From positions 1,160-65,159 of the forward strand of contig JBGRPZ010000007.1 in NCBI GenBank assembly GCA_041725915.1: a stretch of DNA of 64,000 nucleotides. The letters run 5' to 3'. Position numbers and translations under genes: made by a program. Shown piece by piece: positions 3,508-62,167 of the stretch. How positions within the stretch are numbered: position 1 is the stretch's first letter; each line of letters starts with the position of its first letter. The notes below the pieces were generated by a model that did not search any database, was not told the origin of the DNA, and saw only the letters and a program-made list of their open reading frames with translations. The DNA comes from Hyphomicrobiales bacterium. GTDB taxonomy: Bacteria; Bacteroidota; Bacteroidia; Bacteroidales; JBGRPZ01.

Positions 3508-4710
3508 ATGGAAAAAGAAGATAAAAAACAAGATATAAATAATACAGATAAATTTAAATCAAGAGGATTGGATAACATACCAGATCCTTCTGATACTTCT
3601 ATCAAGAGCTGCTCTTACCAATGTTCAAAGCTTGATTCTTATGATTGGTTGAGCAATGTAGTTTCTATTGGAGACTATAAATACTCTAATGTTGCTGAAG
3701 TAAGATTTAAGAATAATAGAAAAGAATTCTTTTCTTACTCAAAGGAAATGCAGTTAAAAGAAGGTGACTTGGTTGCTGTTGAAGCCACTCCAGGGCATGA
3801 TATAGGTATTGTCTGCCTTATTGGTGATGCTGTAAGACTTCAGATTGAAAAGAAAAAGAGTCAAATAAAAAGACCTGAGTTTAAAAAGATTTATCGTAGA
3901 GTCAGACCCTCAGACATTGAAAAATGGATTGTTGCTGTAGATAAAGAAGATGAAACTTTCATTAAATCTAAGCAAACGGTTGAAGAAGTTGGCCTCGAAA
4001 TGAAAATCAATGATGTAGAATATCAAGGTGATAATACAAAAGCAATATTCTACTATACTGCTGATGATAGAGTTGACTTTAGAGAACTGATAAAGAAACT
4101 GGCTGAAATATTCCGTGTTCGTATTGAAATGCGACAAATTGGAGTCAGACAGGAAGCTGGTAAGCTTGGTGGAATCGGTTCTTGTGGTCGTGAACTTTGC
4201 TGTTCAACATGGATGACAAATTTCAGATCTGTTACCACTAACACTGCTCGCCTTCAACAGCTTTCCCTGAATCCACAGAAGCTAGCAGGGCAATGTGGTA
4301 AGCTTAAATGTTGTCTTAACTTTGAGTATGATGGATATAAAGAGGCACTTCAAGAATTTCCTGATCAGGAAACTGTCCTTAAGACTAAAAAGGGAAATGC
4401 TATTCATCAAAAAACTGATGTATATCAAAAGATAATTTGGTATTCTTATGAAAATGATCCTTTCAAGATGATACCTATCCCATTAGATAAAGCTTATAAA
4501 ATCATCTCTGTGAATAAAAGAGGAAAGCTTGTTGATAAGCTTGAAGATTATTCAGTGCCAAAGGAACAGGGAGAGATAATCGTTGATTTAAAAAGTGATG
4601 TTGATATTAATGAGGAACCTTCAAAACCAAAAAAACAGAATAAAAGCAATCAAAATGGAAATGGAGGAAATCGTCGAAAAAAGAACTTTAACAGAAAACC
4701 TCGAAAATGA
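3508..4710 (+). CDS. ricT: PSP1/RicT (YaaT)-family Fe-S regulatory protein
   Basis: FYYTADDRVDFRELIK, GGIGSCGRELCC, GQCGKLKCCL. ATG 3508 preferred over the GTG at 3424. holB-ricT-gldH order. Confidence 0.88.
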   Translation: MEKEDKKQDINNTDKFKSRGLDNIPDPSDTSIKSCSYQCSKLDSYDWLSNVVSIGDYKYSNVAEVRFKNNRKEFFSYSKEMQLKEGDLVAVEATPGHDIGIVCLIGDAVRLQIEKKKSQIKRPEFKKIYRRVRPSDIEKWIVAVDKEDETFIKSKQTVEEVGLEMKINDVEYQGDNTKAIFYYTADDRVDFRELIKKLAEIFRVRIEMRQIGVRQEAGKLGGIGSCGRELCCSTWMTNFRSVTTNTARLQQLSLNPQKLAGQCGKLKCCLNFEYDGYKEALQEFPDQETVLKTKKGNAIHQKTDVYQKIIWYSYENDPFKMIPIPLDKAYKIISVNKRGKLVDKLEDYSVPKEQGEIIVDLKSDVDINEEPSKPKKQNKSNQNGNGGNRRKKNFNRKPRK

Positions 4711-5183
4711 AACGCTTAGCTATTTTTTTTACTTCTACTATTATAATAGTACAGTTTCTTGCTTCATGTAATAATGCTACCTATGATCATTATGTACAAA
4801 TAGATGATGGTAAATGGGATAAAAATCATGCTGCGAAGTTTGTTGTACCTATTGAAGATACTTTAACCTTTTATAAGGTTTTCTTGAATGTGAGAAATGA
4901 TGCCAGATACCCATATAGAAATGTCTATTTCTTTATGGACTTAATTGATCCGAGTGGAAAAGTTCAACGAGATACTATAGATATTGATATTGCAGATCAA
5001 CATGGGAAATGGCTAGGAAGTGGTTTAGGTGAAATTAAGCATAATAGAATCTTACTAAGCCCTTCTGTACATCTATCACAAAAGGGAAACTATACTTTCC
5101 TTATTGAACAAGCAATGCGAAAAGACACCTTAGTGGGTCTAAGAGATATAGGTATTAGAATAGAAAAGAATAAAACAAACTAA
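4707..5183 (+). CDS. gldH: gliding motility lipoprotein GldH
   Basis: Lipobox FLASC; YPYRNVYF, GKWLGSG, IEQAMR, GLRDIG. Confidence 0.9.
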   Translation: MKRLAIFFTSTIIIVQFLASCNNATYDHYVQIDDGKWDKNHAAKFVVPIEDTLTFYKVFLNVRNDARYPYRNVYFFMDLIDPSGKVQRDTIDIDIADQHGKWLGSGLGEIKHNRILLSPSVHLSQKGNYTFLIEQAMRKDTLVGLRDIGIRIEKNKTN

Positions 5184-5192
5184 ATCAGATCA

Positions 5193-7487
5193 ATGACTGA
5201 AAATAAAAAAGTTAATTTAAAAGAAAAAGAAAAACGCCTGTTGAGAAAAGTATTGCTTTGGGTTTGGGGACTATTTGCTTTTGGTGTAATATTTATATTT
5301 TTCATCTTTTTAGGGATCTCTCTTGAATGGTTTGGAGGTATGCCTACTTTTGAAGAACTAGAAAATCCTAAATCTTTTCAGGCTTCTGAAATTTATTCTT
5401 CCGATAACAAGATGTTAGGGAAATACTATATTGAAAACAGATCTAGTGTTGAATATAAGAATATTTCTCCTAACCTTATTAATGCGTTAATGGCAATTGA
5501 AGATGTGCGTTTTGAAGAACATTCTGGCATTGATGAAATTGCTCTATTTAGAGTTGTTGAAGGTATCGTTACTGGAAATCACAAAGGTGGCGGTAGTACA
5601 TTGACTCAACAGCTGGCAAAAAACCTTTTCCCTCGTGGTAATTTGAATAAAGTAAGATTGATCTTACGTAAACTTCAGGAATGGGTTACTGCTACCAAAC
5701 TTGAAAGAAATTATTCCAAAGAGGAAATTATTGCTATGTATTTAAATACTGTTCCTTTTGGCAATAATTCTTTTGGTGTTAAAGCTGCTGCGAAAACTTT
5801 CTTCAACAAAACTCCTGATTCATTGAATCTTCAAGAATCTGCCTTATTGGCTGGTGTTGTTAATGCTCCCACCCGGTTTAACCCTATAAGGAATCCTGAG
5901 AATGCCTTTAAGAGAAGAAATATTGTCCTCTATCAAATGGAAAAGTATGGATTCATCACTGAAGCTGAATATGATAGTGTAAAGATGATACCTATTGATA
6001 TGTCTGAATTTGGAGTTCTTGATCATAATTCAGGTCAGGCAAGATATTTCCGTGAGTATGTAAGAACTTTCATGAAAAAGTGGTGTAAGGATCACTTGAA
6101 ACCTAATGGGAAACCTTATGACCTTTATAGAGATGGATTACGTGTATATACATCTATTGACTCCAGACTACAAAAGTATGCCGAGGAAGCTGTTGCTGAA
6201 CATATAGGTAAAGACTTACAGCCTGCTTTTGTGAAGGATATGAAGAATAATAGGAATGCTCCATTTATTTTTCCAAGTGCTACTGCTAGTAAGGATATAA
6301 AAAGACTTATGACTCGTGCTATGAAGCGTTCATACAGATATAAGAGTATGAAAAGAGCCGGAGTCCCTGAAGATTCTATATTACTGGCTTTTAATAAACC
6401 TATTGAAATGAGGGTTTTTGCATGGAATAAACAAGGACATGTTGATACAGTAATGTCTCCTGTTGATTCTATCAGATATTATAAATCATTCCTAAATGTT
6501 GGACTAATGTCTATGGAACCAGAAACAGGACATGTGAAAGCTTATGTAGGTGGTATTGATTATATGTACTTTAAATTTGATCATGTGTCTCAGGGACAGA
6601 GACAAGTTGGTTCTACTTTTAAGCCATTCTTATATGCGTTGGCTATGCAGGAAGGATCTTTTACTCCTTGTACAAAAGTTGCAAACATCCCTTATTCTGT
6701 TGAGCTTTCTGATGGAACATTCTGGACTCCTGATAATGCAGGTTCAAAGAGAGTTGGAGAGGAAGTTACTTTACAATGGGCTTTGGCAAATTCTAATAAC
6801 TGGATTTCAGCTTACCTTATGAAGAACTTTAGCCCTCAATCTGTAATTAAGCTTACAGGAAAGATGGGTATAACAGCAGATATCCCTGCAGTTCCTTCGA
6901 TTGCTTTAGGATCTGCAGATATCAAACTTGATGAGATGGTTGCTGCAATGAATACTTTTGTTGATAGGGGAGTTTATGTCGAACCTATATTCATCACAAG
7001 AATAGAAGATAAAAACGGTAATATCCTAGAACGATTTTCTCCTGAAAGAAGAGAGGCGATAAGTGAAAATACAGCTTATAAGATGCTTCAACTTATGAAA
7101 GGTGTTGTGCGTTCTGGTACAGGTATTCGCTTGAGAACAAGATATGGATTCAATAATCCTATTGCTGGTAAAACAGGTACAACACAAAATCAATCCGATG
7201 GTTGGTTTATGGGCTTAATTCCTGATCTTACTACTGGTGTATGGGTAGGTGCTGAAGATCGCAGTGTTCATTTTAGAACCATTACTCTGGGACAGGGTGC
7301 AAATATGGCATTGCCAATTTGGGCTTTATATATGAAAAAAGCATATGCTGATCCAAGCTTGAAGTTATCGAAAGATGATTTCCCTGCACCTCCGGGGATG
7401 AATTCAAGTATCTTTGATTGTAAAGATGCTACAGATAATTCGAACGACAACCTCATGAATGAGGATCCTGACAATGATATATTCTAA
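5193..7487 (+). CDS. penicillin-binding protein 1A (transglycosylase/transpeptidase)
   Basis: EDVRFEEHSG, GGSTLTQQLAKN, RKLQE, SxxK (GSTFK), SNN, KTG. Confidence 0.95.
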   Translation: MTENKKVNLKEKEKRLLRKVLLWVWGLFAFGVIFIFFIFLGISLEWFGGMPTFEELENPKSFQASEIYSSDNKMLGKYYIENRSSVEYKNISPNLINALMAIEDVRFEEHSGIDEIALFRVVEGIVTGNHKGGGSTLTQQLAKNLFPRGNLNKVRLILRKLQEWVTATKLERNYSKEEIIAMYLNTVPFGNNSFGVKAAAKTFFNKTPDSLNLQESALLAGVVNAPTRFNPIRNPENAFKRRNIVLYQMEKYGFITEAEYDSVKMIPIDMSEFGVLDHNSGQARYFREYVRTFMKKWCKDHLKPNGKPYDLYRDGLRVYTSIDSRLQKYAEEAVAEHIGKDLQPAFVKDMKNNRNAPFIFPSATASKDIKRLMTRAMKRSYRYKSMKRAGVPEDSILLAFNKPIEMRVFAWNKQGHVDTVMSPVDSIRYYKSFLNVGLMSMEPETGHVKAYVGGIDYMYFKFDHVSQGQRQVGSTFKPFLYALAMQEGSFTPCTKVANIPYSVELSDGTFWTPDNAGSKRVGEEVTLQWALANSNNWISAYLMKNFSPQSVIKLTGKMGITADIPAVPSIALGSADIKLDEMVAAMNTFVDRGVYVEPIFITRIEDKNGNILERFSPERREAISENTAYKMLQLMKGVVRSGTGIRLRTRYGFNNPIAGKTGTTQNQSDGWFMGLIPDLTTGVWVGAEDRSVHFRTITLGQGANMALPIWALYMKKAYADPSLKLSKDDFPAPPGMNSSIFDCKDATDNSNDNLMNEDPDNDIF

Positions 7488-10694: not shown

Positions 10695-11930
10695 TTATTG
10701 CAAAATAGTTCTTATCATATTAAGACTTGCGTTGGCTGTTCTCTTAATGTTTGATTCTCTATTTCTTCCAAAAGAAAAACACTTGGCAATGGTTTTCTTT
10801 GGGCTGGCAATTGCAATCCAAACAGTACCTACAGGCTTTTCTTCACTTCCTCCATCAGGACCAGCAATTCCGGTTGTTGCTATTGCAAAATCAGTGTTAA
10901 TAGCTTTTCTTACTCCATTGGCCATAGCAATAGCGACTTTTTCACTGACAGCACCATGTTTATCCAGATCATCTGCACTTACATTCAGTAGTTTATTCTT
11001 GATCTCATTAGAATATGCTATAACACTACCTTTGTAATATGCCGAGCTACCCGCAGTGGAAGTGATAAGGTGAGCAATAAATCCACCTGTACAGCTTTCT
11101 GCTGTAGCTATTGTTTGTTTGTTACTTTTTAATAACTCTCCGATTACATTTTGTAGCTTATCTTCATCCTGCCCAAATATATATTGAGGAATTAGATCGT
11201 ATAGCTGATTGATCTTGTGATCAATCAGCTTTTCCAGTTTTTCTTTATCTGTTCCTCTGGCAGTGATTCTAAGTCTCACCATTCCTGGTTGAGGTAAATA
11301 GGCTAAGGACATATTTCCTGATAAACTATCTTCCCAATCTTCAATAATTTCAGAGAGAAAAGATTCTCCAATACCATGAGTCATAACGGTTTTGTGAATA
11401 ATAAAACCTAAATCAAACTTTTCTTTCAGCTTGGGGATAATATGTTTTTCCATTACAGATTTCATTTCATAAGGCACACCAGGCATAGAAATAAAGATCT
11501 TATTATCTTCTTCAATCCACATGCCTGGAGCAGTTCCATATATATTTTCAATATATTTAGCCTTATCAGGAATGTAGGCTTGTTGTTTATTAAGGTCTGT
11601 AAGAGGAAGATTGCGACCAGAGAAGATACGTTCGATATTGTCCAAAGCATCACTATTTAAAACTAACTTTGAATTGAAGAGCTCGCACAATGTTTGTTTT
11701 GTAATATCATCTTTTGTAGGGCCAAGTCCACCTGTAATTAATATAATGTCAACTTCTGATTTACTGGCCTGTAATGTATTGATAATAGCTTCTTTTGTAT
11801 CTGAGATTGTTAGTGTTTTGTTGATTTCTATTCCTGCTTTAGTAAGCTCTTTGCCCATCCATGCGGCATTTGTATTTACTACCTGACCAATAAGAAGTTC
11901 ATCTCCTATTGATATTATGTTTGCCTTCAT
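10695..11930 (-). CDS. cinA: competence/damage-inducible protein CinA (NMN deamidase fusion)
   Basis: IGDELLIG, GGLGPTKDD, AESCTGG, TTGIAGP, KPVGTV. Confidence 0.95.
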   Translation of the reverse strand: MKANIISIGDELLIGQVVNTNAAWMGKELTKAGIEINKTLTISDTKEAIINTLQASKSEVDIILITGGLGPTKDDITKQTLCELFNSKLVLNSDALDNIERIFSGRNLPLTDLNKQQAYIPDKAKYIENIYGTAPGMWIEEDNKIFISMPGVPYEMKSVMEKHIIPKLKEKFDLGFIIHKTVMTHGIGESFLSEIIEDWEDSLSGNMSLAYLPQPGMVRLRITARGTDKEKLEKLIDHKINQLYDLIPQYIFGQDEDKLQNVIGELLKSNKQTIATAESCTGGFIAHLITSTAGSSAYYKGSVIAYSNEIKNKLLNVSADDLDKHGAVSEKVAIAMANGVRKAINTDFAIATTGIAGPDGGSEEKPVGTVWIAIASPKKTIAKCFSFGRNRESNIKRTANASLNMIRTILQ

Positions 11931-12344
11931 CTTTAATCTTAATTGATTGAGTAAAAATTCTGTACGAATATATGATTATAACAAAGAATTATGGGAATTG
12001 ATATAAAAAGAGCTTGTTACTTATGGAAGATATATCAGGTATTTTTGTTGAATCACTAGAATCACTATGAGTTTGAGTAGTTGAAGAGAGTTGTTTTTAA
12101 CATAAAAAAACACTTACTTTTTTTTTTAATTTTCATAATCATTAACCTAAAGATCAAAAGCCTAAAATCTGCTTTCCCCTGTATTTTTGTACATTTTCAC
12201 TAATCTACATAAACGCCTTGTAATCAGTACTTTTTAAATATATAATAACAAGATATATCTTGTCACTACAGCATGTTTTGTTGATAATCACGATCAAAAG
12301 TTAAGCGAATAAATCTCGTAGGTCTACTGATTAAAGGCAAAAAA

Positions 12345-12499
12345 CTAGGAGTTTTGTTTTAAAGTCTAGGAGTTTTGTTTTAAAGTCTAGGAGTTTTGTT
12401 TTAAAGTCTAGGAGTTTTGTTTTAAAGTCTAGGAGTTTTATTTCAAAGTCTAGGAGTTTTATTTCAAAGTCTAGGAGTTTTATTTCAAAGTCTAGGAGT
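12345..12499. repeat. 21-bp tandem repeat: 7 full copies plus a partial
   Basis: 4x CTAGGAGTTTTGTTTTAAAGT, then 3x CTAGGAGTTTTATTTCAAAGT, then CTAGGAGT; no spacers. Confidence 0.97.
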
Positions 12500-12652
12500 A
12501 AAATTTCGTAGGCTTTAAGGTAAATCTTATAGTTCAGTTAGTTATGTATTGCAAATCAATTAGTTAATTCTTTTAGATCAATTCACCTTTTCATTTTCTC
12601 AGGAAACAGATCTTTTTAGAGTCATATATAATCGAAATCCGAAGCTTTTGCT

Positions 12653-12682
12653 ATTTAACATAACATTGGGCTTATATGTGCG
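12653..12682 (-). other. XerC/XerD (dif/cer)-like recombination site, 8-bp spacer
   Basis: Minus strand CGCACATATAA-GCCCAATG-TTATGTTAAAT; right arm identical to the canonical XerD arm; near-identical copy at 61989. Confidence 0.6.
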
Positions 12683-12864
12683 ATAATCTACAATTTTAAA
12701 ATTGAAAGCCGAATTATCGCACTATACAGCAGTTAAAAATAAGCGATAAAGCTTATAAAGAAGGGAATGTAAGCATCTGGAATAAAAACATTCCCCTTCT
12801 AAATCTTCAATAATAAGTAGATTATTAAGATGAATTAATTGTAAAAGTATATTATATCTGAATA

Positions 12865-12894
12865 AACTGATTTAAAGAAACCTTTAAATCAGTT
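12865..12894 (-). terminator. hairpin/terminator after the PepSY-TM gene
   Basis: aactgatttaaag-aaac-ctttaaatcagtt. Confidence 0.6.
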
Positions 12895-12898
12895 CATA

Positions 12899-14452
12899 TT
12901 AATCAACTTTTCTTTTACGTCTAAATGCTCGCTTCAACCATAATATCAACCCACTCAAAAGAATTAAGAAGGTAAACAGTCCAAATAATGGAATAATCAG
13001 TATATAGAACTTTCCAACTATAGGCTGAAAGATACGTGCTGTATGGGTCTCAAGACATAAATTCCAGAATGACATTCGTGAATTCTCTCTTAGCTCTTTA
13101 GGCATTGTAAGGCTCTTGGCTGCACGAGGAGTCATCCCTATCACACCATCATTATAATCAATATAGAAATCTCCAGATATACTATCTTGTATTACACCAG
13201 AAACAGCATTCTTTCCAATTGGAGGGCCTCCTCTATTGATCACTGGTGGAGCACCTGAAAAATAATCTAACAACACATCATCATAAGGATTCCATTCAAA
13301 CAAACCAGAGAAAGAACCTACAAGGTAATGCCCTGATGGACTATCTTCCATCACATTAATACCCATAACACTAATTGGGGGTTGTAGCTTTGATAAGTCA
13401 GGAACATCATTGAATGCAGTATCTACAGTATATATACCTTCAATAGTTCCTACTAGAACCTTATTTCTTTTCTTATCGAAATGTACTGCTCTGATAATAT
13501 CAAAATATGGGTTGGGTTGGTCAAGATGTGTACCTGCTATCTTTGAAACTCTTGAACTGGCTATTGGTATAAGTAAAGGAGGACGTAAGAACATTCCCGT
13601 TATAGTTATAATCATAAGAAAGATTACAACCCAAATACCTACCTTCAGATGATACTTATGATGCCATTTATATCTCTTTGACAACTTCTTTTTCTTCTCT
13701 TTATCTTCTCTTTTCTTTCTTATCCTTTTGGGAATTATCCACATCACAAGACCGCTAATGGCAAAAAAGATCATAAGTAATGCCATTATATCTACAAATA
13801 TCTTTCCTGCGAAACCAAAGATCTCACCACTATGTATCATCCAGAAAGTACGGAAAAGGCTCACCTTGCCATCCAAGTTCTTTGCTGGCAGCAACTCCTC
13901 TTTCACAACAGAATAATCATTACCCTGCTTTGTCATAGTAAAGATATCAGAACGAGTAGCCAACAACAACTTATCATTCAATAAATCCAGATCTACAATT
14001 CTCTCTTCTTTGGTTGGAAGACCGTAATACATCCAATCACTATATAAATCAGGCTTGTAATAAAGACCAAACTCAGTTGCTGCAAACAGCTGATCACCCC
14101 ATCTTACAATATCATATATCTTACGGCCATCAGCTCCAGCACCAAAACCATTATTATAGTCATTAAACTGTGAGAAACTATTATCTGTAAGAAAGCAACC
14201 TTCATTACCATATACCAACATTTGTGTGGAATTCAGGCGCAGACCACCATTCAAAGCACCGAAATTCCAATTGCCCATTGCATATTCCTTTGGCAAAGCC
14301 GAGCGGGGAACATCCCATGATCGTATCCAATCCCTATGATTCATGAATATACCCGACAGAGACCAAATAACTACAAACACTGTCAATACTATAGAAAACC
14401 ATTTATGTATCCAAAGCCACCTTTTCTTCTTTTTCTTCTTTTTCTCACTCAT
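12899..14452 (-). CDS. PepSY-associated TM helix domain membrane protein
   Basis: IHKWFS...SGIFMNH, IHSGEIFG, HLKVG...TGMFL, THTARIF: repeated His-bearing TM motifs. Confidence 0.85.
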   Translation of the reverse strand: MSEKKKKKKKRWLWIHKWFSIVLTVFVVIWSLSGIFMNHRDWIRSWDVPRSALPKEYAMGNWNFGALNGGLRLNSTQMLVYGNEGCFLTDNSFSQFNDYNNGFGAGADGRKIYDIVRWGDQLFAATEFGLYYKPDLYSDWMYYGLPTKEERIVDLDLLNDKLLLATRSDIFTMTKQGNDYSVVKEELLPAKNLDGKVSLFRTFWMIHSGEIFGFAGKIFVDIMALLMIFFAISGLVMWIIPKRIRKKREDKEKKKKLSKRYKWHHKYHLKVGIWVVIFLMIITITGMFLRPPLLIPIASSRVSKIAGTHLDQPNPYFDIIRAVHFDKKRNKVLVGTIEGIYTVDTAFNDVPDLSKLQPPISVMGINVMEDSPSGHYLVGSFSGLFEWNPYDDVLLDYFSGAPPVINRGGPPIGKNAVSGVIQDSISGDFYIDYNDGVIGMTPRAAKSLTMPKELRENSRMSFWNLCLETHTARIFQPIVGKFYILIIPLFGLFTFLILLSGLILWLKRAFRRKRKVD

Positions 14453-14564: not shown

Positions 14565-14660
14565 TTTGTTATAATTCATTTATTTATATACCTTTGTAGC
14601 AACATGCTTACCCCGCTTCCTTCTATGAATAGCGCGCTTAGGGTAAGCCTTTTATTTTTT
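14565..14660 (+). ncRNA. candidate ~55-nt hairpin small RNA with its own promoter
   Basis: TTTG(14565)-N20-TACCTTTG(14589) promoter, then stem GCTTACCC...GGGTAAGC and a plus-strand T-tract. Confidence 0.4.
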
Positions 14661-17600
14661 ATGATTCTACTTCTTGTTTTTCTTCTGTTGTCGTCTTTTT
14701 CTCCTCTATAGAATTTATATAATCCTCTAATAAAATAGCATATTTATTTCTTATCTTCTTTGCCGTTCTTTCCTCTGTTATATCCTTAGGAGCATTCTCG
14801 ATAATATATTCAGCTAATTCATCTGTTATTTCTGTCTCAATAAAAGCACGGATTCTTTCTTTTCTTTTTTCTATTTCTATCTTATCTTTTATATTTAACT
14901 CAAGATCTTTGAATTTATCAAATGCATCTAAAAATATTATTCCTGCTGATCTAAAAAAGACAATTAACCTAAGATTAAAACTTAGATCATTCATTAGTCC
15001 TAGAGGATTAGAACTCTCTAAAATAGAAATATGATTATAATATTTCCCAAATGCAGGAATATAAAAATATCTATGATTATATTCTTCTCTAAAATCAGAC
15101 AAATTCTTTTGAAAAAATATTCTTGGAATATCAAAATCAGAAGTAGGCTTTAATTTAAACTTAACAGCTCTATAACAATTACCTATAGGTATATTATCTT
15201 CTATAGTCATATCTTTCATTAAGAACTCATAAAAGTCTTCAATGTAAAATCCATTTGTTAAAAAATCTTTTAATAAAAGAAAATCTCGTGTGATAATCTT
15301 ACCCTGATTTTCCTCTTCATTTAAAAAAGAATTAAAGACTTCATTGATTGGATACTTATATAAATCAATTTCACCGCTATATTCAATATCTTTGATTTTC
15401 AAATATTTCTTTAGCAGAGAATTATTGACTAAATCTACACATATTACTTCTTCTGAAGAAAACAACTCCTTTAATGATATATCAAATCCAGAATCCTTTT
15501 TATTTAAAAGGATTGGTAGCTTAATATTATTAATCTCATCTTTCGTTAGAGATCCCTTTAAACTCTGATTATTACAATATCTTAATATTAAAGAAATTAA
15601 TCTGAAATACGCTAAATATGATTTAGGAGAAACATTCTCTTTATCATTAGAATATTTTGAGCAAAAAGCATCTGAAATTTTATCTATAACTCCTGAAATA
15701 GATTCGAATACTCTTGAAAAGATCTTTTTAATTAATACTTCATTAACTAATTCTTGCTCTTTTCGTTTTATGGAATTATCTCTTGAGAGTTTCACTATTT
15801 TACCTGAGTCACAATTGTATAAATCCCAAGTAACTGATTGGTGTAATAGATTTTCATATCCTCTTCCACCAGATTGCTTAAAAACACTAACCCCTTTAAG
15901 CCTCAATCTTAAATCACCATATTCATTGTGTTTTTCCATTATAAAAATTGATACTTTCGATCCAAAGAACTCAGTTTCTTCTATTTTTATTCTAAAAGTA
16001 TATAAGTCTCTCCCTCCTGTTCTTTGCTCCTTCTTTATATAAATCTCATATTTATTTCTAAAATCAGACCCAAAGAAACCTGAGTAAATTAATTCATCAT
16101 TTATATCATATTCTTGATGATATAAAAAAGTTTCTGGATCCACTCCTTTCTTTGGAAATTTAACATGATCAACTAATTCACTATATCTTCTTTTCAGTCC
16201 AAAAAATGAATATAAAACATCATTATCTTCAGGTAACACCTCTGTTAATGTTTTCTTAGAGATTAGCTCATCACCTGTCTTCTCTTTATACTCATCAGGT
16301 TTTAGAAGAATTTCGATTCTAGTTCCTCTTTCCATATTAGGAACATTTTCAGTAATACTGGAATACTCCCCTTTACTTGCCGATTTAAATACAATTTCTT
16401 TAGCTTTTTCTTTCTCTGTTTTGGTTTGTATTTTAAACTCATTAGCTACAAGAAATATCGATTGTAAACCAACGCCAAAATCACCTGTAGGTTGAAGAAA
16501 GTATGGGAGTTCACTCTTTATATCCTGAAAATCTTTATCCTTTCTCCTACTTTCACCAACTTTAAAGATCATTCTCTTTAATGTTTCTGTGCTTATACCA
16601 TGCCCTCTATCTTCTAATTGAATAAGAATTCCTTCTCCTTTTTCACCCTTGTTCTTATAATCAATATGAAATTTAATAGGATAATTATCATATACTTCTT
16701 GGGGAATATCTTCAGGAAAAGTAATAAGTTGATACAATTCCTTTCCTTCATCTAATTCTTTTTGTAGGTACTCAATTCTTTCCTGTTCTCCCTCCTTCTT
16801 TTCCATCAAAAGATATTTTTGAATAATAGAATTATATCTATTATCCTTTATATCATACCACAATTGCAATTTAGTTGCATCCAGAGCATTTTGCACAATT
16901 TCTCGTAAAAACACTTTATCTGGTTCATCATAAATTGCACCTCCTTCAAGCATTTCAAATATTTTCTTTTGTGGAATATCAAAGCGTAAGTTTTGTAACT
17001 CAGAATCGGCATCAACACCTTTAAATTTTACAACAATTTTATCTTTTCTAATATTCGGACAAGTTCCTTTCAGATCAAATGGAGCTATATCGTTCTTCCA
17101 ATAATCCTTTAACTCTGTTCTTTCTTTTAGAATTAATTCTCGCCAATTCATAGCCTCACGAAATATTAGATCACTTGGACAATTCCAGGTAATCTCAATA
17201 CTATCCGGACAAATTAAAATATGTTCTACAGATGCATGTTTTCCTTCATGAGCCACTGAAGTATCAGGAATAGTATTAAGAGTTGCTATTTGAAATGGGT
17301 TAAACCTTTTATCGTCTGCATCCAATAAATCACCTAATCGAAGCATCGCTGCAATAAAACGAGGATGGCATAAATCATTATCATAACCACTCTGCTTATA
17401 TTGAAGATTAGACAACAACTTATCATAGTCATAACCATGAGCAGCTACAATCTCAGCAATCATCTTGGAGAAACGATCAGGTAAGAAATTTAAATTAAAC
17501 TGATTCATCAATTTTTGAAAGATATGGTCTGAAGAAGCTGTAATATATTCCTTACTCCTTTGTGCATGCCCCCTTCTAAAATAATCAGCTGTTATTAGAA

Positions 17601-18093
17601 TCATTGCATTCTTTATATCCAATGACCATAGTTCCTCAATCTTAAAGCTATCATCAACTTTTTCTCCCAATAGCTTTTTATTATAATTCAATATTAATTT
17701 GGCTGCATCTTTTAGTCCATTATCAGAACTTTCTTTAATTATATCTTCACAAAATTGAATCAATTGCCCACCCTTCCATTCCTCTGCAATAAATTGATGC
17801 AATACAACCATTCCAATATCATGAAGGTAAGCACTCATTAAAATAAGAAAAGAGTCTGTAGGAGAAAGCTTCTCAATTCCCTCTTTTCCTAATACTCCCT
17901 CTATTGATTTCACTATAGCTCTGGAATGGCTGGCTCCATGTTTGCTATAATGAGGAAAGTTATTTGTAATTGTATCTAATGCATCAGGGAGGTGATCCTT
18001 GTTTAATTTCCATATAGAATATAAAACTTTAAAATTAGGATAGGTAGTGCAAATCTTCTCAAGATGCAACTCAATAGTATAATTTTCAAACAT
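14659..18093 (-). CDS. HD-domain (HD-CE-like) + Hsp90-like GHKL ATPase fusion protein, putative conflict/defence effector
   Basis: HYSKHGASHS, AYLHDIGM, RLGDLLD; GHKL motifs LREIVQNALDA, EDRGHG, GDFGVGLQS, GTRI. Confidence 0.8.
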   Translation of the reverse strand: MFENYTIELHLEKICTTYPNFKVLYSIWKLNKDHLPDALDTITNNFPHYSKHGASHSRAIVKSIEGVLGKEGIEKLSPTDSFLILMSAYLHDIGMVVLHQFIAEEWKGGQLIQFCEDIIKESSDNGLKDAAKLILNYNKKLLGEKVDDSFKIEELWSLDIKNAMILITADYFRRGHAQRSKEYITASSDHIFQKLMNQFNLNFLPDRFSKMIAEIVAAHGYDYDKLLSNLQYKQSGYDNDLCHPRFIAAMLRLGDLLDADDKRFNPFQIATLNTIPDTSVAHEGKHASVEHILICPDSIEITWNCPSDLIFREAMNWRELILKERTELKDYWKNDIAPFDLKGTCPNIRKDKIVVKFKGVDADSELQNLRFDIPQKKIFEMLEGGAIYDEPDKVFLREIVQNALDATKLQLWYDIKDNRYNSIIQKYLLMEKKEGEQERIEYLQKELDEGKELYQLITFPEDIPQEVYDNYPIKFHIDYKNKGEKGEGILIQLEDRGHGISTETLKRMIFKVGESRRKDKDFQDIKSELPYFLQPTGDFGVGLQSIFLVANEFKIQTKTEKEKAKEIVFKSASKGEYSSITENVPNMERGTRIEILLKPDEYKEKTGDELISKKTLTEVLPEDNDVLYSFFGLKRRYSELVDHVKFPKKGVDPETFLYHQEYDINDELIYSGFFGSDFRNKYEIYIKKEQRTGGRDLYTFRIKIEETEFFGSKVSIFIMEKHNEYGDLRLRLKGVSVFKQSGGRGYENLLHQSVTWDLYNCDSGKIVKLSRDNSIKRKEQELVNEVLIKKIFSRVFESISGVIDKISDAFCSKYSNDKENVSPKSYLAYFRLISLILRYCNNQSLKGSLTKDEINNIKLPILLNKKDSGFDISLKELFSSEEVICVDLVNNSLLKKYLKIKDIEYSGEIDLYKYPINEVFNSFLNEEENQGKIITRDFLLLKDFLTNGFYIEDFYEFLMKDMTIEDNIPIGNCYRAVKFKLKPTSDFDIPRIFFQKNLSDFREEYNHRYFYIPAFGKYYNHISILESSNPLGLMNDLSFNLRLIVFFRSAGIIFLDAFDKFKDLELNIKDKIEIEKRKERIRAFIETEITDELAEYIIENAPKDITEERTAKKIRNKYAILLEDYINSIEEKKTTTEEKQEVES

Positions 18094-47510: not shown

Positions 47511-47520
47511 AAACAAAAAA

Positions 47521-47620
47521 AGGGTAAGCTACCTGCGTCGCACTGCTACAACCTCATACCCTTGCTGCCTTCCGGCCCTGGGGGATTCTGAGGGAGCTAG
47601 TCGCACAGGACTTACCCGGC
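47521..47620 (-). ncRNA. ffs: signal recognition particle (4.5S) RNA
   Basis: Minus strand has domain IV CCAGGGCCGGAAGGCAGCAAGG inside a long hairpin closed by GGGTAAG/CTTACCC. Confidence 0.93.
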
Positions 47621-47900
47621 CACAAAGATAGAAAAAAGTTGGTAAATACAAGTTTTTTTCATCCTTTCTGAGAAAAAAAATCATATCACAATATATACCA
47701 ATACTATACAACTGCATTTTTTTTACAAAAAAGAAGAAATCCAGCCCCACTCTACTATAAAACGCTAATATCCCCCCGAAAATCCAGTTGAATTTCTATA
47801 AATCTTCCTCTTTTTCCACAAAAGTCTCTCATAAAATCTCAAAAAGACATTCTTTTCTCTTCTTTTCGGCAAATTTTGTCCTTGCCTGCGTTTTTATAAA

Positions 47901-48045
47901 TCCTCCCCCAGAAAAATAAAGTTTCATCCCCTGATGAACATCAATCTTCCCACTGACACTCATCCATTCTCCCCTTGACACTCACCCATCTTCCTACTGA
48001 CAACCATTCATCTTCCCCCCGACATTTATGCATTCTTCCCCCGAA
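47901..48045. repeat. degenerate ~22-bp periodic array (7 units)
   Basis: TCTTCCCNNNGA-type cores at ~47901, 47924, 47945, 47967, 47989, 48011, 48034. Confidence 0.7.
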
Positions 48046-61702: not shown

Positions 61703-61870
61703 CTACCTAGAAAATATAATTTTAGCTACCTAGAAATTTATATTCTTGCTACCTAGAAAATATAATTCTTGCTACCTAAAATAAAATTAGACTTACCTAA
61801 AAATTTATATTCTTGCTACCTAAAATAAAATTAGACTTATCTAAAAATTTATATTCTTGCTACCTAAAAT
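61703..61870. repeat. 21/23-bp tandem repeat array (8 unit starts)
   Basis: (C/T)TACCTA(G/A)AA cores at 61703, 61726, 61749, 61772, 61793, 61816, 61837, 61860; the 44-bp segment 61772-61815 is nearly duplicated. Confidence 0.92.
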
Positions 61871-61988
61871 TTCTCAATCCTCTATTCTCTTAAAAATCAT
61901 AAGTTTGATAACAATCAGCGATCAATCTTTTACAAAGAGATATTTTCCAGATTATTTTTAAACACCAAAACTTATTATTCATAATTCT

Positions 61989-62018
61989 ATTTAACATAAG
62001 ATTGGGCTTATATGTGAG
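61989..62018 (-). other. XerC/XerD (dif/cer)-like recombination site, 8-bp spacer
   Basis: Minus strand CTCACATATAA-GCCCAATC-TTATGTTAAAT; 28/30 identical to the 12653 site. Confidence 0.6.
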
Positions 62019-62167
62019 ATAAAAACAAACTTTGAAATAGAAAAGCTTATTTATTCGATTCTCAGAGCGTTTAACATTACCCCAAAAGCTTATAAATCAT
62101 CAATAAAGAAGATTCGAAAACTTTACAAGAAATTGAAAGAATTTCATTTATTTTTGATTCTTTTAAT

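What the first reader, a model, noticed from the sequence alone, without database searches (positions are those of the whole stretch)
12345..12759. Composite non-coding element: helically phased repeat array plus XerC/D-like site with 8-bp spacer (copy 1)
Seen: a 21-bp x7 array, then ~150 bp later a ~110-bp block (12651-12759) that recurs at 61987-62096, also behind a 21/23-bp array. The block starts with ATTTAACATAA-N8-TTATATGTG.G and ends in AAAGCTTATAAA. The two arrays differ in sequence, while period, array length and the downstream block are conserved. Established: TTATGTTAAAT is the XerD arm of dif. Chromosomal dif has a 6-bp spacer, whereas 8-bp spacers occur in sites such as ColE1 cer that need accessory protein-binding DNA. 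Inference: this is a dispersed, gene-less element family in which a two-helical-turn protein-binding array is coupled to a tyrosine-recombinase site. It could be a non-autonomous Xer-mobilised element, a gene-capture hotspot or a chromosome-organisation site. I know of no description of this architecture.
Basis: partly seen in the sequence, partly recalled or inferred. Interest (0 to 1): 0.85.

Follow-up and report, generated by a model that had tools for sequence, protein, structure and literature searches.

The report
High-copy minisatellite MITE with dif-like core
This stretch is one of about sixty copies of a gene-less mobile repeat that carries a short tandem-repeat array and a conserved motif matching half of the chromosome's dimer-resolution site; miniature transposons of this build are already known from a related bacterium.

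Summary
A 21-bp x7.4 array lies at 12345-12499, and 151 bp later a ~110-bp block recurs at 61987-62096 behind a 23-bp array. The two copies are only the visible part. The block gives 81 blastn rows in the organism's own 123-contig genome, 54 of them at contig ends. The repeated unit is about 760-800 bp (window ~12096-12897): leader, 21-23-bp minisatellite, spacer, tail. I found 51 leaders and 59 tails. Many copies are bounded by a 15-bp terminal inverted repeat, 44 exact copies against 0.07 expected. Small elements holding IS5-family transposase remnants share it. [quoted passage not shown] The "Xer site" is half supported. The first 11 bases equal the XerD arm of E. coli dif and of a single-copy dif-like site in this genus. 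The second arm is not conserved across sub-families, and the conserved unit is a 17-mer. No recombination is shown. Verdict: a new member of a known kind, with an unexplained conserved XerD half-site.

The parts
11995..12009 (+). Possible degenerate left terminal inverted repeat (GAATTGATATAAAAA, 13 of 15 to the family TIR). Uncertain.
   Evidence: TIR scan, (C7:13154). Contig depth in 12010-12110 is at single-copy level, so the stretch between this and the leader is not part of the high-copy repeat.
12096..12344 (+). Leader module of the repeat family. It ends in ...AAGTTAAGCGAATAAATCTCGTAGGTCTACT.
   Evidence: Alignment of 7 full copies. Blastn gives 81 rows with left limits at query 36/46. 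There are 51 anchors. Summed contig depth jumps from about 3-5 to more than 500 at 12111.
12345..12499 (+). Minisatellite: 21-bp unit CTAGGAGTTTTGTTTTAAAGT, 7.4 copies.
   Evidence: TRF. Other copies of the same family carry 21-, 22- or 43-bp units at this place.
12500..12650 (+). Spacer between array and tail, conserved within family 1.
12653..12669 (+). Core 17-mer ATTTAACATAACATTGG. Its first 11 nt (12653-12663) equal the reverse complement of the XerD arm of dif.
12678..12722 (+). Hairpin GTGCGATAAT - 25 nt - ATTATCGCAC, directly after the variable 8-nt patch.
   Evidence: strand folding: z -4.65 on the + strand and -3.82 on the - strand. A stem of 7 bp or more follows 31 of 48 cores.
12651..12856 (+). 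Tail module: core, hairpin, AAAGCTTATAAA at 12748-12759, a variable hairpin, CTAAATCTTCAATAATAA, and ...TTGTAAAAGTATATTATA.
   Evidence: There are 59 tail anchors, one of which looks spurious.
12865..12894 (.). Terminal hairpin made of two TIR-like arms (AACTGATTTAAAG / CTTTAAATCAGTT). It looks like a collapsed copy of the 173-194-bp TIR-bounded mini-MITE that ends many other copies. It sits 4 nt past the stop of the PepSY_TM gene (12899-14452, minus strand).
   Evidence: fold z -7.53.
61703..61870 (+). Minisatellite of the second, diverged copy: 23-bp unit CTACCTAAAAATTTATATTCTTG, 7.4 copies; also reads as a 44-bp unit.
   Evidence: It falls in the same flank-similarity cluster as copy 1.
61987..62096 (+). 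Tail block of the second copy (sub-family 3). Its core is at 61989-62005 with one mismatch (ATTTAACATAAGATTGG).

Best explanation
The locus is one copy of a high-copy, non-coding, modular interspersed repeat of the MITE kind. Its parts are a leader (~250 bp), an internal 21-23-bp minisatellite (105-234 bp where complete), a spacer (~150 bp) and a conserved tail (~205 bp).

Shown:
- There are about 50-60 copies of the main family, plus at least three diverged sub-families that keep the tail but carry other arrays.
- All examined copies are intergenic, and in either orientation.
- Many copies are bounded by a 15-bp terminal inverted repeat. Small elements that still hold the first codons and the C-terminus of an IS5-family transposase share that repeat.

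Inferred:
- The composite was spread by an IS5-family DDE transposase acting in trans on those ends.
- The array grows and shrinks by slippage. In family 1, different copies have amplified different overlapping halves of one ~43-bp stretch that carries GTCTA every 21-22 bp.
- The window copy is an older copy with eroded ends.

The core 17-mer is an internal conserved module. It contains an exact XerD half-site. Its role is not established.
For: Copy number and limits:
- 81 blastn rows for the block, 54 at contig ends, and 81 rows for the leader.
- 51 leader and 59 tail anchors.
- An alignment of 7 full copies fixes the limits.
- Summed contig depth in public runs is 350-1665 over 12111-12918, against about 3-6 in the flanks. 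Depth is not a copy number.

Terminal repeats:
- GAAGTGATTTAAAAA occurs 44 times exactly and 184 times with up to 2 mismatches; 0.07 exact copies are expected.
- A full TIR-to-TIR copy is C3:13371-14461, 1091 bp.
- 20 of 51 leaders carry extension A. It starts with the TIR and holds an ATG plus ~17 codons also found in the 295- and 432-bp elements C66 and C93.
- The C-terminal remnant in those elements matches NCBIfam IS5 family transposase NF033580, E 3.9e-8, positions 216-258 of 258.
- The anchor of the right extension, a 173-194-bp TIR-bounded mini-MITE that also occurs on its own, has 38 hits, most of them behind tails.

Placement:
- No ORF of 50 aa or more lies in the element.
- Orientation against the neighbouring genes is 30:21 on the leader side and 33:26 on the tail side.

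Distribution:
- The 806-nt element matches 2 of 41 genomes: the own genome and the one same-genus genome. It matches 0 of 39 other families.
- The leader is 89% identical between the two species, while cinA is 64%.

Precedent: BrickBuilt has the same build (PMC4596501).
Against: - No intact transposase with these ends was found in the own assembly or in the sister species. The PF01609 hits are other IS types, NF033580 hits only remnants, and the near-complete IS5-type element in G001 has different ends.
- Target-site duplications are not clear: 'AT' stands on both sides in 3 of 9 TIR pairs.
- The window copy has no clean TIRs.
- No empty-versus-filled site was found.
- Only 25 of 169 arrays of period 20-23/43-44 have this TIR within 900 bp, against 95 of 2000 random windows.
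- Plain transposon decay does not explain two things. The 17-mer is the best-conserved piece across sub-families. And 3 exact plus 2 one-mismatch solo 17-mers stand in unrelated DNA.
- A TnpB C-terminal remnant, not an IS5 end, abuts some leaders.
Confidence: 0.6

Rival explanations
1. The core is a working Xer-type site, or at least a XerD-binding half-site. Either XerD (with XerC or alone) or another tyrosine recombinase exchanges strands next to the 17-mer and so shuffles or moves tails. Or XerD bound there acts without recombination, as at the XDS sites of Bacillus. The arrays would then be accessory protein-binding DNA.
For: - The 11-mer equals the XerD arm of E. coli dif.
- It also equals the arm of a dif-like site with a 6-bp spacer that occurs exactly once in G000 (C5:28964) and once in G001 (C51:10977, spacer differing by one base). 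Four of 41 genomes have such a site, one each.
- It is the best-conserved piece of the element.
- Directly 3' of the 17-mer lies a variable patch, where a crossover region would be.
- Solo 17-mers have unrelated DNA on both sides, with 0.004 expected by chance.
- The genome encodes 2 Xer-sized and 3 integrase-type tyrosine recombinases. One of them has a solo core 263 bp upstream.
- Phage dif-like sites can have central regions longer than 6 bp (passage of PMC3025954).
Against: - The second arm is not conserved and shows no dyad symmetry in sub-family 2.
- The six bases after the arm are as conserved as the arm, unlike a spacer.
- The roughly 50 sites are dispersed. They show no orientation bias against GC skew (12 versus 21, 18 in weak skew) and no clear clustering (3 on C5 against 1.0 expected, P 0.08).
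- The recombinant tail C45 switches sub-family inside the hairpin region, not at the core.
- The sister species has the dif-like site and leaders but 0 cores.
- The array upstream of the sister's integrase belongs to a dispersed family there, so it may be a chance insertion.
- The phage sites mentioned in PMC3025954 have a degenerate XerD arm, the reverse of what is seen here.
Confidence: 0.18
2. The tail is a miniature IS200/IS605-type unit (PATE/REP-like). A conserved flank plus a sub-terminal hairpin would be recognised as single-stranded DNA by a Y1 (HUH) transposase. The 17-mer would hold the cleavage or target site.
For: - A strong hairpin lies directly after the core: z -4.65, and a stem of 7 bp or more follows 31 of 48 cores.
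- A second small hairpin sits near the tail's end.
- Core-plus-hairpin units occur without the rest, at C5:63056 and C5:36157.
- A TnpB C-terminal remnant (PF07282, E 6.7e-12) abuts a leader at C1:89466-89618, and similar sequence precedes other leaders.
Against: - There is no Y1 transposase above cut-off: one hit at 21.4 bits against a cut-off of 23.
- There is no intact TnpB.
- The TnpB remnant lies on the leader side and reads away from the element, not next to the hairpin.
- The hairpin stem shrinks to 5-6 bp in other sub-families, and RNAalifold finds no consensus pairing.
Confidence: 0.07
3. The element is kept for a host function in cis or as RNA: outward promoters or terminators, or a non-coding RNA whose array binds a protein.
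For: - BrickBuilt segments drive transcription in both directions (abstract of PMC4596501).
- The TIR-arm hairpin lies 4 nt after the stop of the PepSY_TM gene and could terminate it.
- Many array units hold short palindromes.
Against: - There is no orientation bias towards neighbouring genes.
- Sigma-70-like sites number 7 against 6.7 in shuffles, and no terminator-like site was found. The scan does not cover Bacteroidota promoters.
- There is no Rfam match better than E 0.25.
- RNAalifold finds no consensus structure on either strand.
- The array folds no better than shuffles, z +0.43.
Confidence: 0.07

Closest known systems
BrickBuilt MITE of Porphyromonas gingivalis (Klein et al. 2015, PMC4596501; I read the abstract, section 5 and part 1 of section 7)
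   Same: - Leader, head-to-tail 23-nt repeats without spacers (1-22.8 copies) and tail, up to 991 nt in all.
- Strictly intergenic.
- About 19 copies, many lacking one end.
- Short TIRs like those of IS5-family elements.
- Restricted to a species or genus.
- Same bacterial order, judged from the Bacteroidales-type small SRP RNA in the window.
   Different: - The TIR sequence differs: the paper prints GAGACCTTTGCA, and here it is GAAGTGATTTAAAAA.
- There are about three times more copies.
- Several sub-families have unrelated array units but a shared tail.
- The tail holds a conserved 17-mer with an exact XerD half-site and a hairpin.
MITE464 / MITEPgRS of P. gingivalis (as described in PMC4596501, section 7)
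   Same: It is a MITE with internal 41-nt tandem repeats and IS5-like TIRs. Here some family-1 copies carry 43-bp units.
   Different: Its flanks are themselves repetitive. No sequence comparison was possible.
BOX elements of Streptococcus pneumoniae (recalled, no call)
   Same: The logic is modular, A-(B)n-C: conserved ends around a variable number of one repeated internal box, dispersed in intergenic DNA.
   Different: They are much shorter, belong to another phylum and show no IS5-type ends. This is a resemblance only.
dif / cer-type XerC-XerD sites and Xer-exploiting elements (IMEX, pdif modules). dif sequences and the remark on phage sites come from PMC3025954; cer, IMEX details and pdif modules are recalled.
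   Same: An exact XerD arm is followed by a central stretch and, in family 1, a TTAT-starting second half at 8-bp spacing.
   Different: - The second arm is not conserved.
- There are about 50 dispersed copies rather than one site at the terminus or sites on plasmids.
- No cargo genes are present.
- No evidence of Xer action was found.
XerD-binding XDS sites of Bacillus subtilis (Karaboja et al. 2021; only cited passages in PMC11894783 were seen; the paper itself is not held)
   Same: The concept is XerD binding to sites other than dif, with no recombination.
   Different: XDS act in the terminus region. The cores here show no clear terminus clustering or orientation bias. The XDS motif could not be compared.

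Membership tests
MITE (non-autonomous DDE-transposon derivative) | Small, non-coding, many dispersed copies | tested here: met
   No ORF of 50 aa or more lies in 11931-12898. There are 51 leaders and 59 tails, and 54 of 81 block hits lie at contig ends.
MITE (non-autonomous DDE-transposon derivative) | Terminal inverted repeats | tested here: inconclusive
   The family has them: the 15-bp TIR occurs 44 times exactly against 0.07 expected, and C3:13371-14461 is bounded by it. The window copy has only a 13/15 match 100 bp left of the repeat and a collapsed TIR-arm hairpin on the right.
MITE (non-autonomous DDE-transposon derivative) | Target-site duplication | tested here: inconclusive
   'AT' stands on both sides in 3 of 9 TIR pairs. 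The flanks are AT-rich.
MITE (non-autonomous DDE-transposon derivative) | A parent IS with the same ends | tested here: inconclusive
   Only remnants were found: C66 and C93, with an IS5-family C-terminus at E 3.9e-8. No intact copy exists in G000 or G001. The assembly is 96% complete and breaks at repeats.
MITE (non-autonomous DDE-transposon derivative) | Insertion polymorphism (empty versus filled sites) | tested here: inconclusive
   The sister species is too diverged. Its cinA locus lacks the element, but its neighbour gene also differs. No joints were seen in 4 public runs.
BrickBuilt-type minisatellite MITE | Leader, spacer-less 21-23-nt tandem array, then tail | tested here: met
   The 11 complete family-1 arrays span 105-234 bp, with periods 21 (7), 22 (3) and 43 (1).
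BrickBuilt-type minisatellite MITE | Sequence homology to BrickBuilt (leader, repeat, tail, TIR) | tested here: not met
   Only the TIRs printed in the paper could be compared, and they differ. The rest could not be tested because supplements are closed. The claim is therefore same kind, not same family by descent.
XerC/XerD recombination site (dif, cer-like) | XerD-binding arm | tested here: met
   It is 11 of 11 identical to the arm of E. coli dif and to the arm of the genus's single-copy dif-like site.
XerC/XerD recombination site (dif, cer-like) | A second, partly palindromic arm (XerC side) conserved with the first | tested here: not met
   The TTAT start is lost in sub-family 2 and others. 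Conservation covers the arm plus 6 nt, then a variable 8-9 nt.
XerC/XerD recombination site (dif, cer-like) | Binding and strand exchange by XerC/XerD | not testable with these tools
   This needs EMSA, ChIP or a resolution assay.
IS200/IS605-type end (PATE/REP-like) | A sub-terminal hairpin with a conserved flank, plus a Y1 transposase in the genome | tested here: not met
   The hairpin is present. No Y1_Tnp exceeds the cut-off, and only a TnpB remnant exists.
Structured non-coding RNA | A match to a known family, or a conserved secondary structure with covariation | tested here: not met
   Rfam gives no hit at gathering score, and the best E is 0.25. RNAalifold on 22 diverse tails finds no structure on either strand.

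The most novel reading that the evidence does not exclude
A transposon-like repeat has scattered about 50 copies of a functional XerD-binding half-site through the chromosome of one species. This half-site is identical to the XerD arm of the genus's own dif. XerD, or another resident tyrosine recombinase, acts at the 17-mer. It would either exchange DNA at the adjacent variable patch, which would explain the mosaic of arrays joined to one tail and the bare solo 17-mers, or it would organise the chromosome as XDS sites do. The neighbouring 21-23-bp arrays would serve as accessory protein-binding DNA.
Probability: 0.15. Interest if true: 0.8.

Novelty: new member of a known kind. Interest (0 to 1): 0.42.

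Why it matters
- The repeat explains why this draft genome is broken into 123 contigs. About 54 contig ends fall in this one block.
- Minisatellite-bearing MITEs were so far described mainly in Porphyromonas. This copy shows that they also occur in a distant, low-GC genus of the same order.
- They can reach more than 1% of a genome (my estimate, from about 55 copies of about 0.8 kb).
- Two open points could be tested directly:
  1. Why is a perfect XerD half-site the best-kept part of a mobile repeat?
  2. Why does this genome hold 164 intergenic arrays that all have a 21-23-bp period, in about 58 unrelated unit types?
- If XerD binds these sites, mobile repeats would be rewiring a chromosome-maintenance protein.

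Tried and rejected
Searches and tests that led nowhere:
- Rfam at gathering score on the whole window found only a Bacteroidales small SRP RNA at 47518-47624. By E-value on 11900-12950 it found only two microRNA chance hits, at E 0.25 and 0.67.
- RNAalifold on 31 and then 22 diverse tails found no consensus structure on either strand.
- The sigma-70 and terminator scan showed no enrichment.
- No RNA holder is listed among public runs.
- Laying contigs of 4 DNA runs gave no joints and no contig spanning the element.
- The target-site duplication is not resolved.
- The hunt for a partner enzyme found the following:
  - PF01609 hits are other IS types.
  - tblastn with the remnant peptides finds only remnants.
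  - NF033580 finds remnants in G000, and an element with different ends in G001.
  - There is no IS110-type or serine recombinase, no Y1 transposase above cut-off, and only a TnpB fragment.
- The search for related loci with the C5 integrase found no relative.
- Exact-pattern scans found nothing: the core pattern in genome contigs and metagenome contigs, and the left-end pattern of extension A in metagenome contigs.

Leads considered and set aside:
- The link between the resident integrase and the core or arrays was down-weighted. The gene is syntenic in both species. The array upstream of the G001 ortholog belongs to a dispersed family there.
- Enrichment at the terminus and orientation against GC skew are not significant. 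Seven contigs show strong skew switches, so skew alone does not place the terminus.
- The reading of the array as a CRISPR array, plasmid iterons or a centromere was rejected. There are no spacers, no rep or par genes nearby, and dozens of chromosomal copies.

Tools and papers not available:
- PMC7897262 is not held.
- Supplements are closed. The BrickBuilt supplementary figures and sequences, which would allow a direct sequence comparison, were not seen.
Full report
**What is there.** The region 11931-12898 lies between cinA (10695-11930, minus strand) and a PepSY_TM membrane protein gene (12899-14452, minus strand). It holds no ORF of 50 aa or more.
- TRF confirms a 21-bp unit repeated 7.4 times at 12345-12499, with 98% matches.
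- The conserved block starts 151 bp later, with ATTTAACATAA-CATTGGGC-TTATATGTGCG at 12653-12682 and AAAGCTTATAAA at 12748-12759.
- A second intergenic region lies between two PI-PLC-like genes. It has a 23-bp array at 61703-61870. From 61987 it has the same opening (34 of 36 bases alike) and the same closing word.
- The flanking genes of the two sites are unrelated.

**It is a high-copy repeat.** The window is G000:C7:1160-65159 of a 3.88-Mb draft genome with 123 contigs and 33% G+C.
- The 130-nt block gives 81 blastn rows in that genome. Of these, 54 lie within 30 nt of a contig end, so the assembly breaks on this repeat.
- The sequence left of the array is repeated as well, with 81 rows, many at contig ends that face the array.
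- Aligning seven copies that have both flanks fixes the shared unit at about window 12096 to 12856. It consists of a ~250-bp leader, the array, a ~150-bp spacer and a ~205-bp tail.
- Anchors find 51 leaders and 59 tails; one tail hit looks spurious.
- Of the 51 leaders, 30 have an array within 350 bp, and 19 of those arrays run into a contig end. The 11 complete arrays span 105-234 bp with periods 21 (7 arrays), 22 (3) and 43 (1).
- Mean pairwise identity is 0.88 for tails (n=30) and 0.85 for leaders (n=36).
- In four public DNA runs, the summed contig depth rises from about 3-6 in the flanks to 350-1665 over 12111-12918. This fits the same limits, although depth is not a copy number.

**Modules and sub-families.** Within family 1 the array unit differs from copy to copy. 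It can be 21 bp (as in the window), 22 bp (AATCTCGTAGGTCTACTTACAG) or 43 bp. These units are overlapping parts of one stretch at the end of the leader that carries GTCTA every 21-22 bp. At least three further sub-families have unrelated arrays and different spacers but keep the tail. Their units are CTACCTAAAA... as in window copy 2, AAGCTCGAGAGAATC..., and GACTTTT...AAAAGTC.

- Of 31 cores with enough upstream sequence, 17 have a period 21-23 or 43 array within 450 bp. Random positions give 127 of 5000.
- Two more (C8, C45) have two-unit arrays that fall below the threshold.

**Ends and likely mobilisation.**
- Twenty of 51 leaders are preceded by a ~170-bp extension that begins GAAGTGATTTAAAAAGTC.
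- Many tails are followed by a 173-194-bp unit that ends GTAGTTTTTAAATCACTTC. The right-extension anchor has 38 hits.
- The two termini are inverted repeats of each other. The 15-mer occurs 44 times exactly (0.07 expected) and 184 times with up to two mismatches.
- C3:13371-14461 is a complete TIR-to-TIR copy of 1091 bp. The right-hand unit also exists alone as a 173-194-bp MITE.
- Two small elements with the same ends (C66, 295 bp; C93, 432 bp) keep the start of an ORF, which is also present in the left extension. They also keep a C-terminal piece that matches NCBIfam 'IS5 family transposase' (E 3.9e-8, positions 216-258 of 258; Pfam DDE_Tnp_1_2 only at E 0.038).

I read the composite as a derivative of an IS5-family element in which the transposase gene was replaced by the leader-array-tail cargo. 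The evidence against this reading is substantial:
- No intact matching transposase exists in this assembly or in the sister species.
- Duplications at the ends are unclear.
- The window copy has only eroded ends. These are a 13/15 TIR-like word at 11995-12009, separated from the leader by single-copy DNA, and a tight hairpin of two TIR-like arms at 12865-12894.
- Ten of 51 leaders have other left flanks. Some contain a TnpB C-terminal remnant that reads away from the element.

**Placement and spread.**
- All examined copies are intergenic.
- Orientation towards the neighbouring genes is unbiased (30:21 and 33:26).
- Orientation towards GC skew is also unbiased (cores 12:21 with 18 in weak skew; leaders 18:17).
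- The 806-nt element matches only the own genome and the single same-genus genome among 41 genomes searched. It matches none of 39 other families of the order.
- Between the two species the leader is 89% identical, whereas cinA is 64% and another flanking gene 66%. This suggests recent spread or exchange.
- The tail is not found in the sister species.
- The 17-mer core occurs 55 times in the own genome. It occurs 0 times in the sister and 0-3 times in each of 400 genomes of the order, which is no more than the reversed control.
- A core pattern that allows the variable patch is absent from the 185,579-species genome collection and from the metagenome collection.

**The 'Xer site'.** The E. coli dif sequence printed in PMC3025954 ends in TTATGTTAAAT. 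The core begins with its exact reverse complement. I then looked for the organism's own dif.
- Of 67 exact copies of the 11-mer, 52 are in cores and 15 are elsewhere.
- Only one of those 15 has a 6-bp spacer followed by TTATG. It is C5:28964 ATTTAACATAA-TATGAA-TTATGAATTTA, between convergent genes.
- The same pattern occurs exactly once in the sister species, with one spacer base changed. It also occurs once each in two of 39 other genomes.
- GC skew on C5 turns from +0.11 to -0.08 around this place. Seven contigs show comparable switches, so skew is weak support.

I take C5:28964-28991 as the probable dif. The XerD arm in the element is therefore the native one.

The rest of the proposed site does not hold:
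- Across 22 diverse tails the invariant stretch is the arm plus the next six bases (CATTGG).
- The following 8-9 bases, which include the TTAT of the supposed XerC arm, change freely.
- Conservation resumes at GTGCGATAA, the left arm of a hairpin.
- In sub-family 2 no dyad symmetry is left.
- A recombinant tail (C45) switches sub-family inside the hairpin region, not at the core.

One thing speaks for a site-specific process at the 17-mer. Three exact and two one-mismatch solo 17-mers stand in otherwise unrelated intergenic DNA, where 0.004 exact copies are expected. One of them lies 263 bp upstream of a resident Arm-type tyrosine integrase. That gene is syntenic in the sister species, where a 23-bp x3.8 array sits upstream instead. 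The unit of that array recurs elsewhere in the sister genome, so this may be an ordinary insertion. I cannot decide this by computation.

**Other readings tested.**
- No known RNA family matches.
- There is no consensus RNA structure on either strand.
- The array folds no better than shuffles.
- Sigma-70-like sites are not enriched, although Bacteroidota promoters are not covered by that scan.
- The genome has no IS110-type or serine recombinase, and no Y1 transposase above cut-off.

**Comparison with what is known.** BrickBuilt of P. gingivalis is described as follows (PMC4596501; I read the abstract, section 5 and part 1 of section 7):
- It has a leader of up to 285 nt, spacer-less 23-nt repeats (1-22.8 copies) and a tail of up to 318 nt, with 12-nt TIRs like those of IS5-family elements.
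- It has 19 copies, is always intergenic and is restricted to P. gingivalis and P. gulae.
- A sister MITE carries 41-nt repeats.

A 2024 review lists BrickBuilt among strictly intergenic, promoter-bearing MITEs (passages of PMC10969869). The element here has the same build, so the architecture is not new. What differs is:
- the TIR sequence;
- the copy number;
- several array types sharing one tail;
- the conserved XerD half-site plus hairpin in that tail.

Descent from BrickBuilt itself could not be tested, because its sequences are in closed supplements. I file the element as a new member of the kind 'minisatellite-bearing MITE', not as a member of the BrickBuilt family.

**Wider pattern, noticed in passing.**
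- The genome holds 164 arrays of period 21-23 (81, 58 and 25), out of about 270 arrays with periods 10-100. They fall into about 58 clusters of unit sequence.
- Of 124 arrays that are internal to contigs, 117 lie outside long ORFs, although such ORFs cover 81% of the genome.
- Their flanks fall into 85 similarity groups. The largest group (15 arrays) contains both window arrays.
- Only 25 of 169 have the TIR described above within 900 bp.
- The sister species shows two such arrays in one 18-kb stretch.

The preference for a 21-23-bp period is therefore broader than this family, and it is unexplained.

**Verdict.**
The two-arm Xer site, the novelty of the architecture and Xer mobilisation do not.
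- The best explanation is a BrickBuilt-like composite MITE spread by an IS5-family transposase in trans (0.6).
- The main rival is that the conserved 17-mer is a working XerD or tyrosine-recombinase site (0.18).

Noticed in passing
window 47939-48040: A third array of the same kind lies here: a 22-bp unit (CATCCATCTTCCCACTGACACT) repeated 4.6 times, about 300 bp from the Bacteroidales-type small SRP RNA at 47518-47624.
   Followed up: no
whole genome G000 (not window coordinates): There are 164 tandem arrays of period 21-23, in about 58 unit-sequence clusters. Of 124 contig-internal ones, 117 lie outside long ORFs. Most have flanks unrelated to the family studied here.
   Followed up: partly
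G000:C5:28964-28991; G001:C51:10977-10998: This is the probable chromosomal dif: ATTTAACATAA-TATGAA-TTATGAATTTA. It is single-copy, lies between convergent genes and sits near a GC-skew turn. The sister species has one near-identical site.
   Followed up: partly
G000:C5:50700-52253; L041 (G001:C35) 4661-6140: A resident 424-aa tyrosine integrase (Arm-DNA-bind_5 + SAM_5 + Phage_integrase) is conserved in synteny between the two species at 60% identity. A solo 17-mer core lies 263 bp upstream in G000. A 23-bp x3.8 palindrome-bearing array lies upstream in G001.
   Followed up: partly
L010 1117-1429 (G000:C1:89364-89676): A TnpB (Cas12f1-like TNB) C-terminal remnant directly abuts the leader of another copy and reads away from it. 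Related sequence precedes several other leaders.
   Followed up: partly
L005 (G001:C53:1-387) versus window 12096-12484: The leader is 89% identical between the two species, while flanking housekeeping genes are 64-66% identical at the DNA level. The sister species lacks the tail and the core.
   Followed up: partly
window 12865-12894: The TIR-arm hairpin of the element begins 4 nt after the stop codon of the PepSY_TM gene. It may serve as that gene's terminator.
   Followed up: no
window 14659-18093 (minus strand): This is a 1144-aa protein with an HD-CE domain (E 1e-44) and weak HATPase_c_3 and HD matches. I did not look at it further.
   Followed up: no
G000:C45:21849-22060 versus C8:14273: This is a mosaic tail. 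It matches sub-family 2 up to the hairpin loop and family 1 after it, which suggests exchange between copies by homologous recombination or conversion.
   Followed up: no
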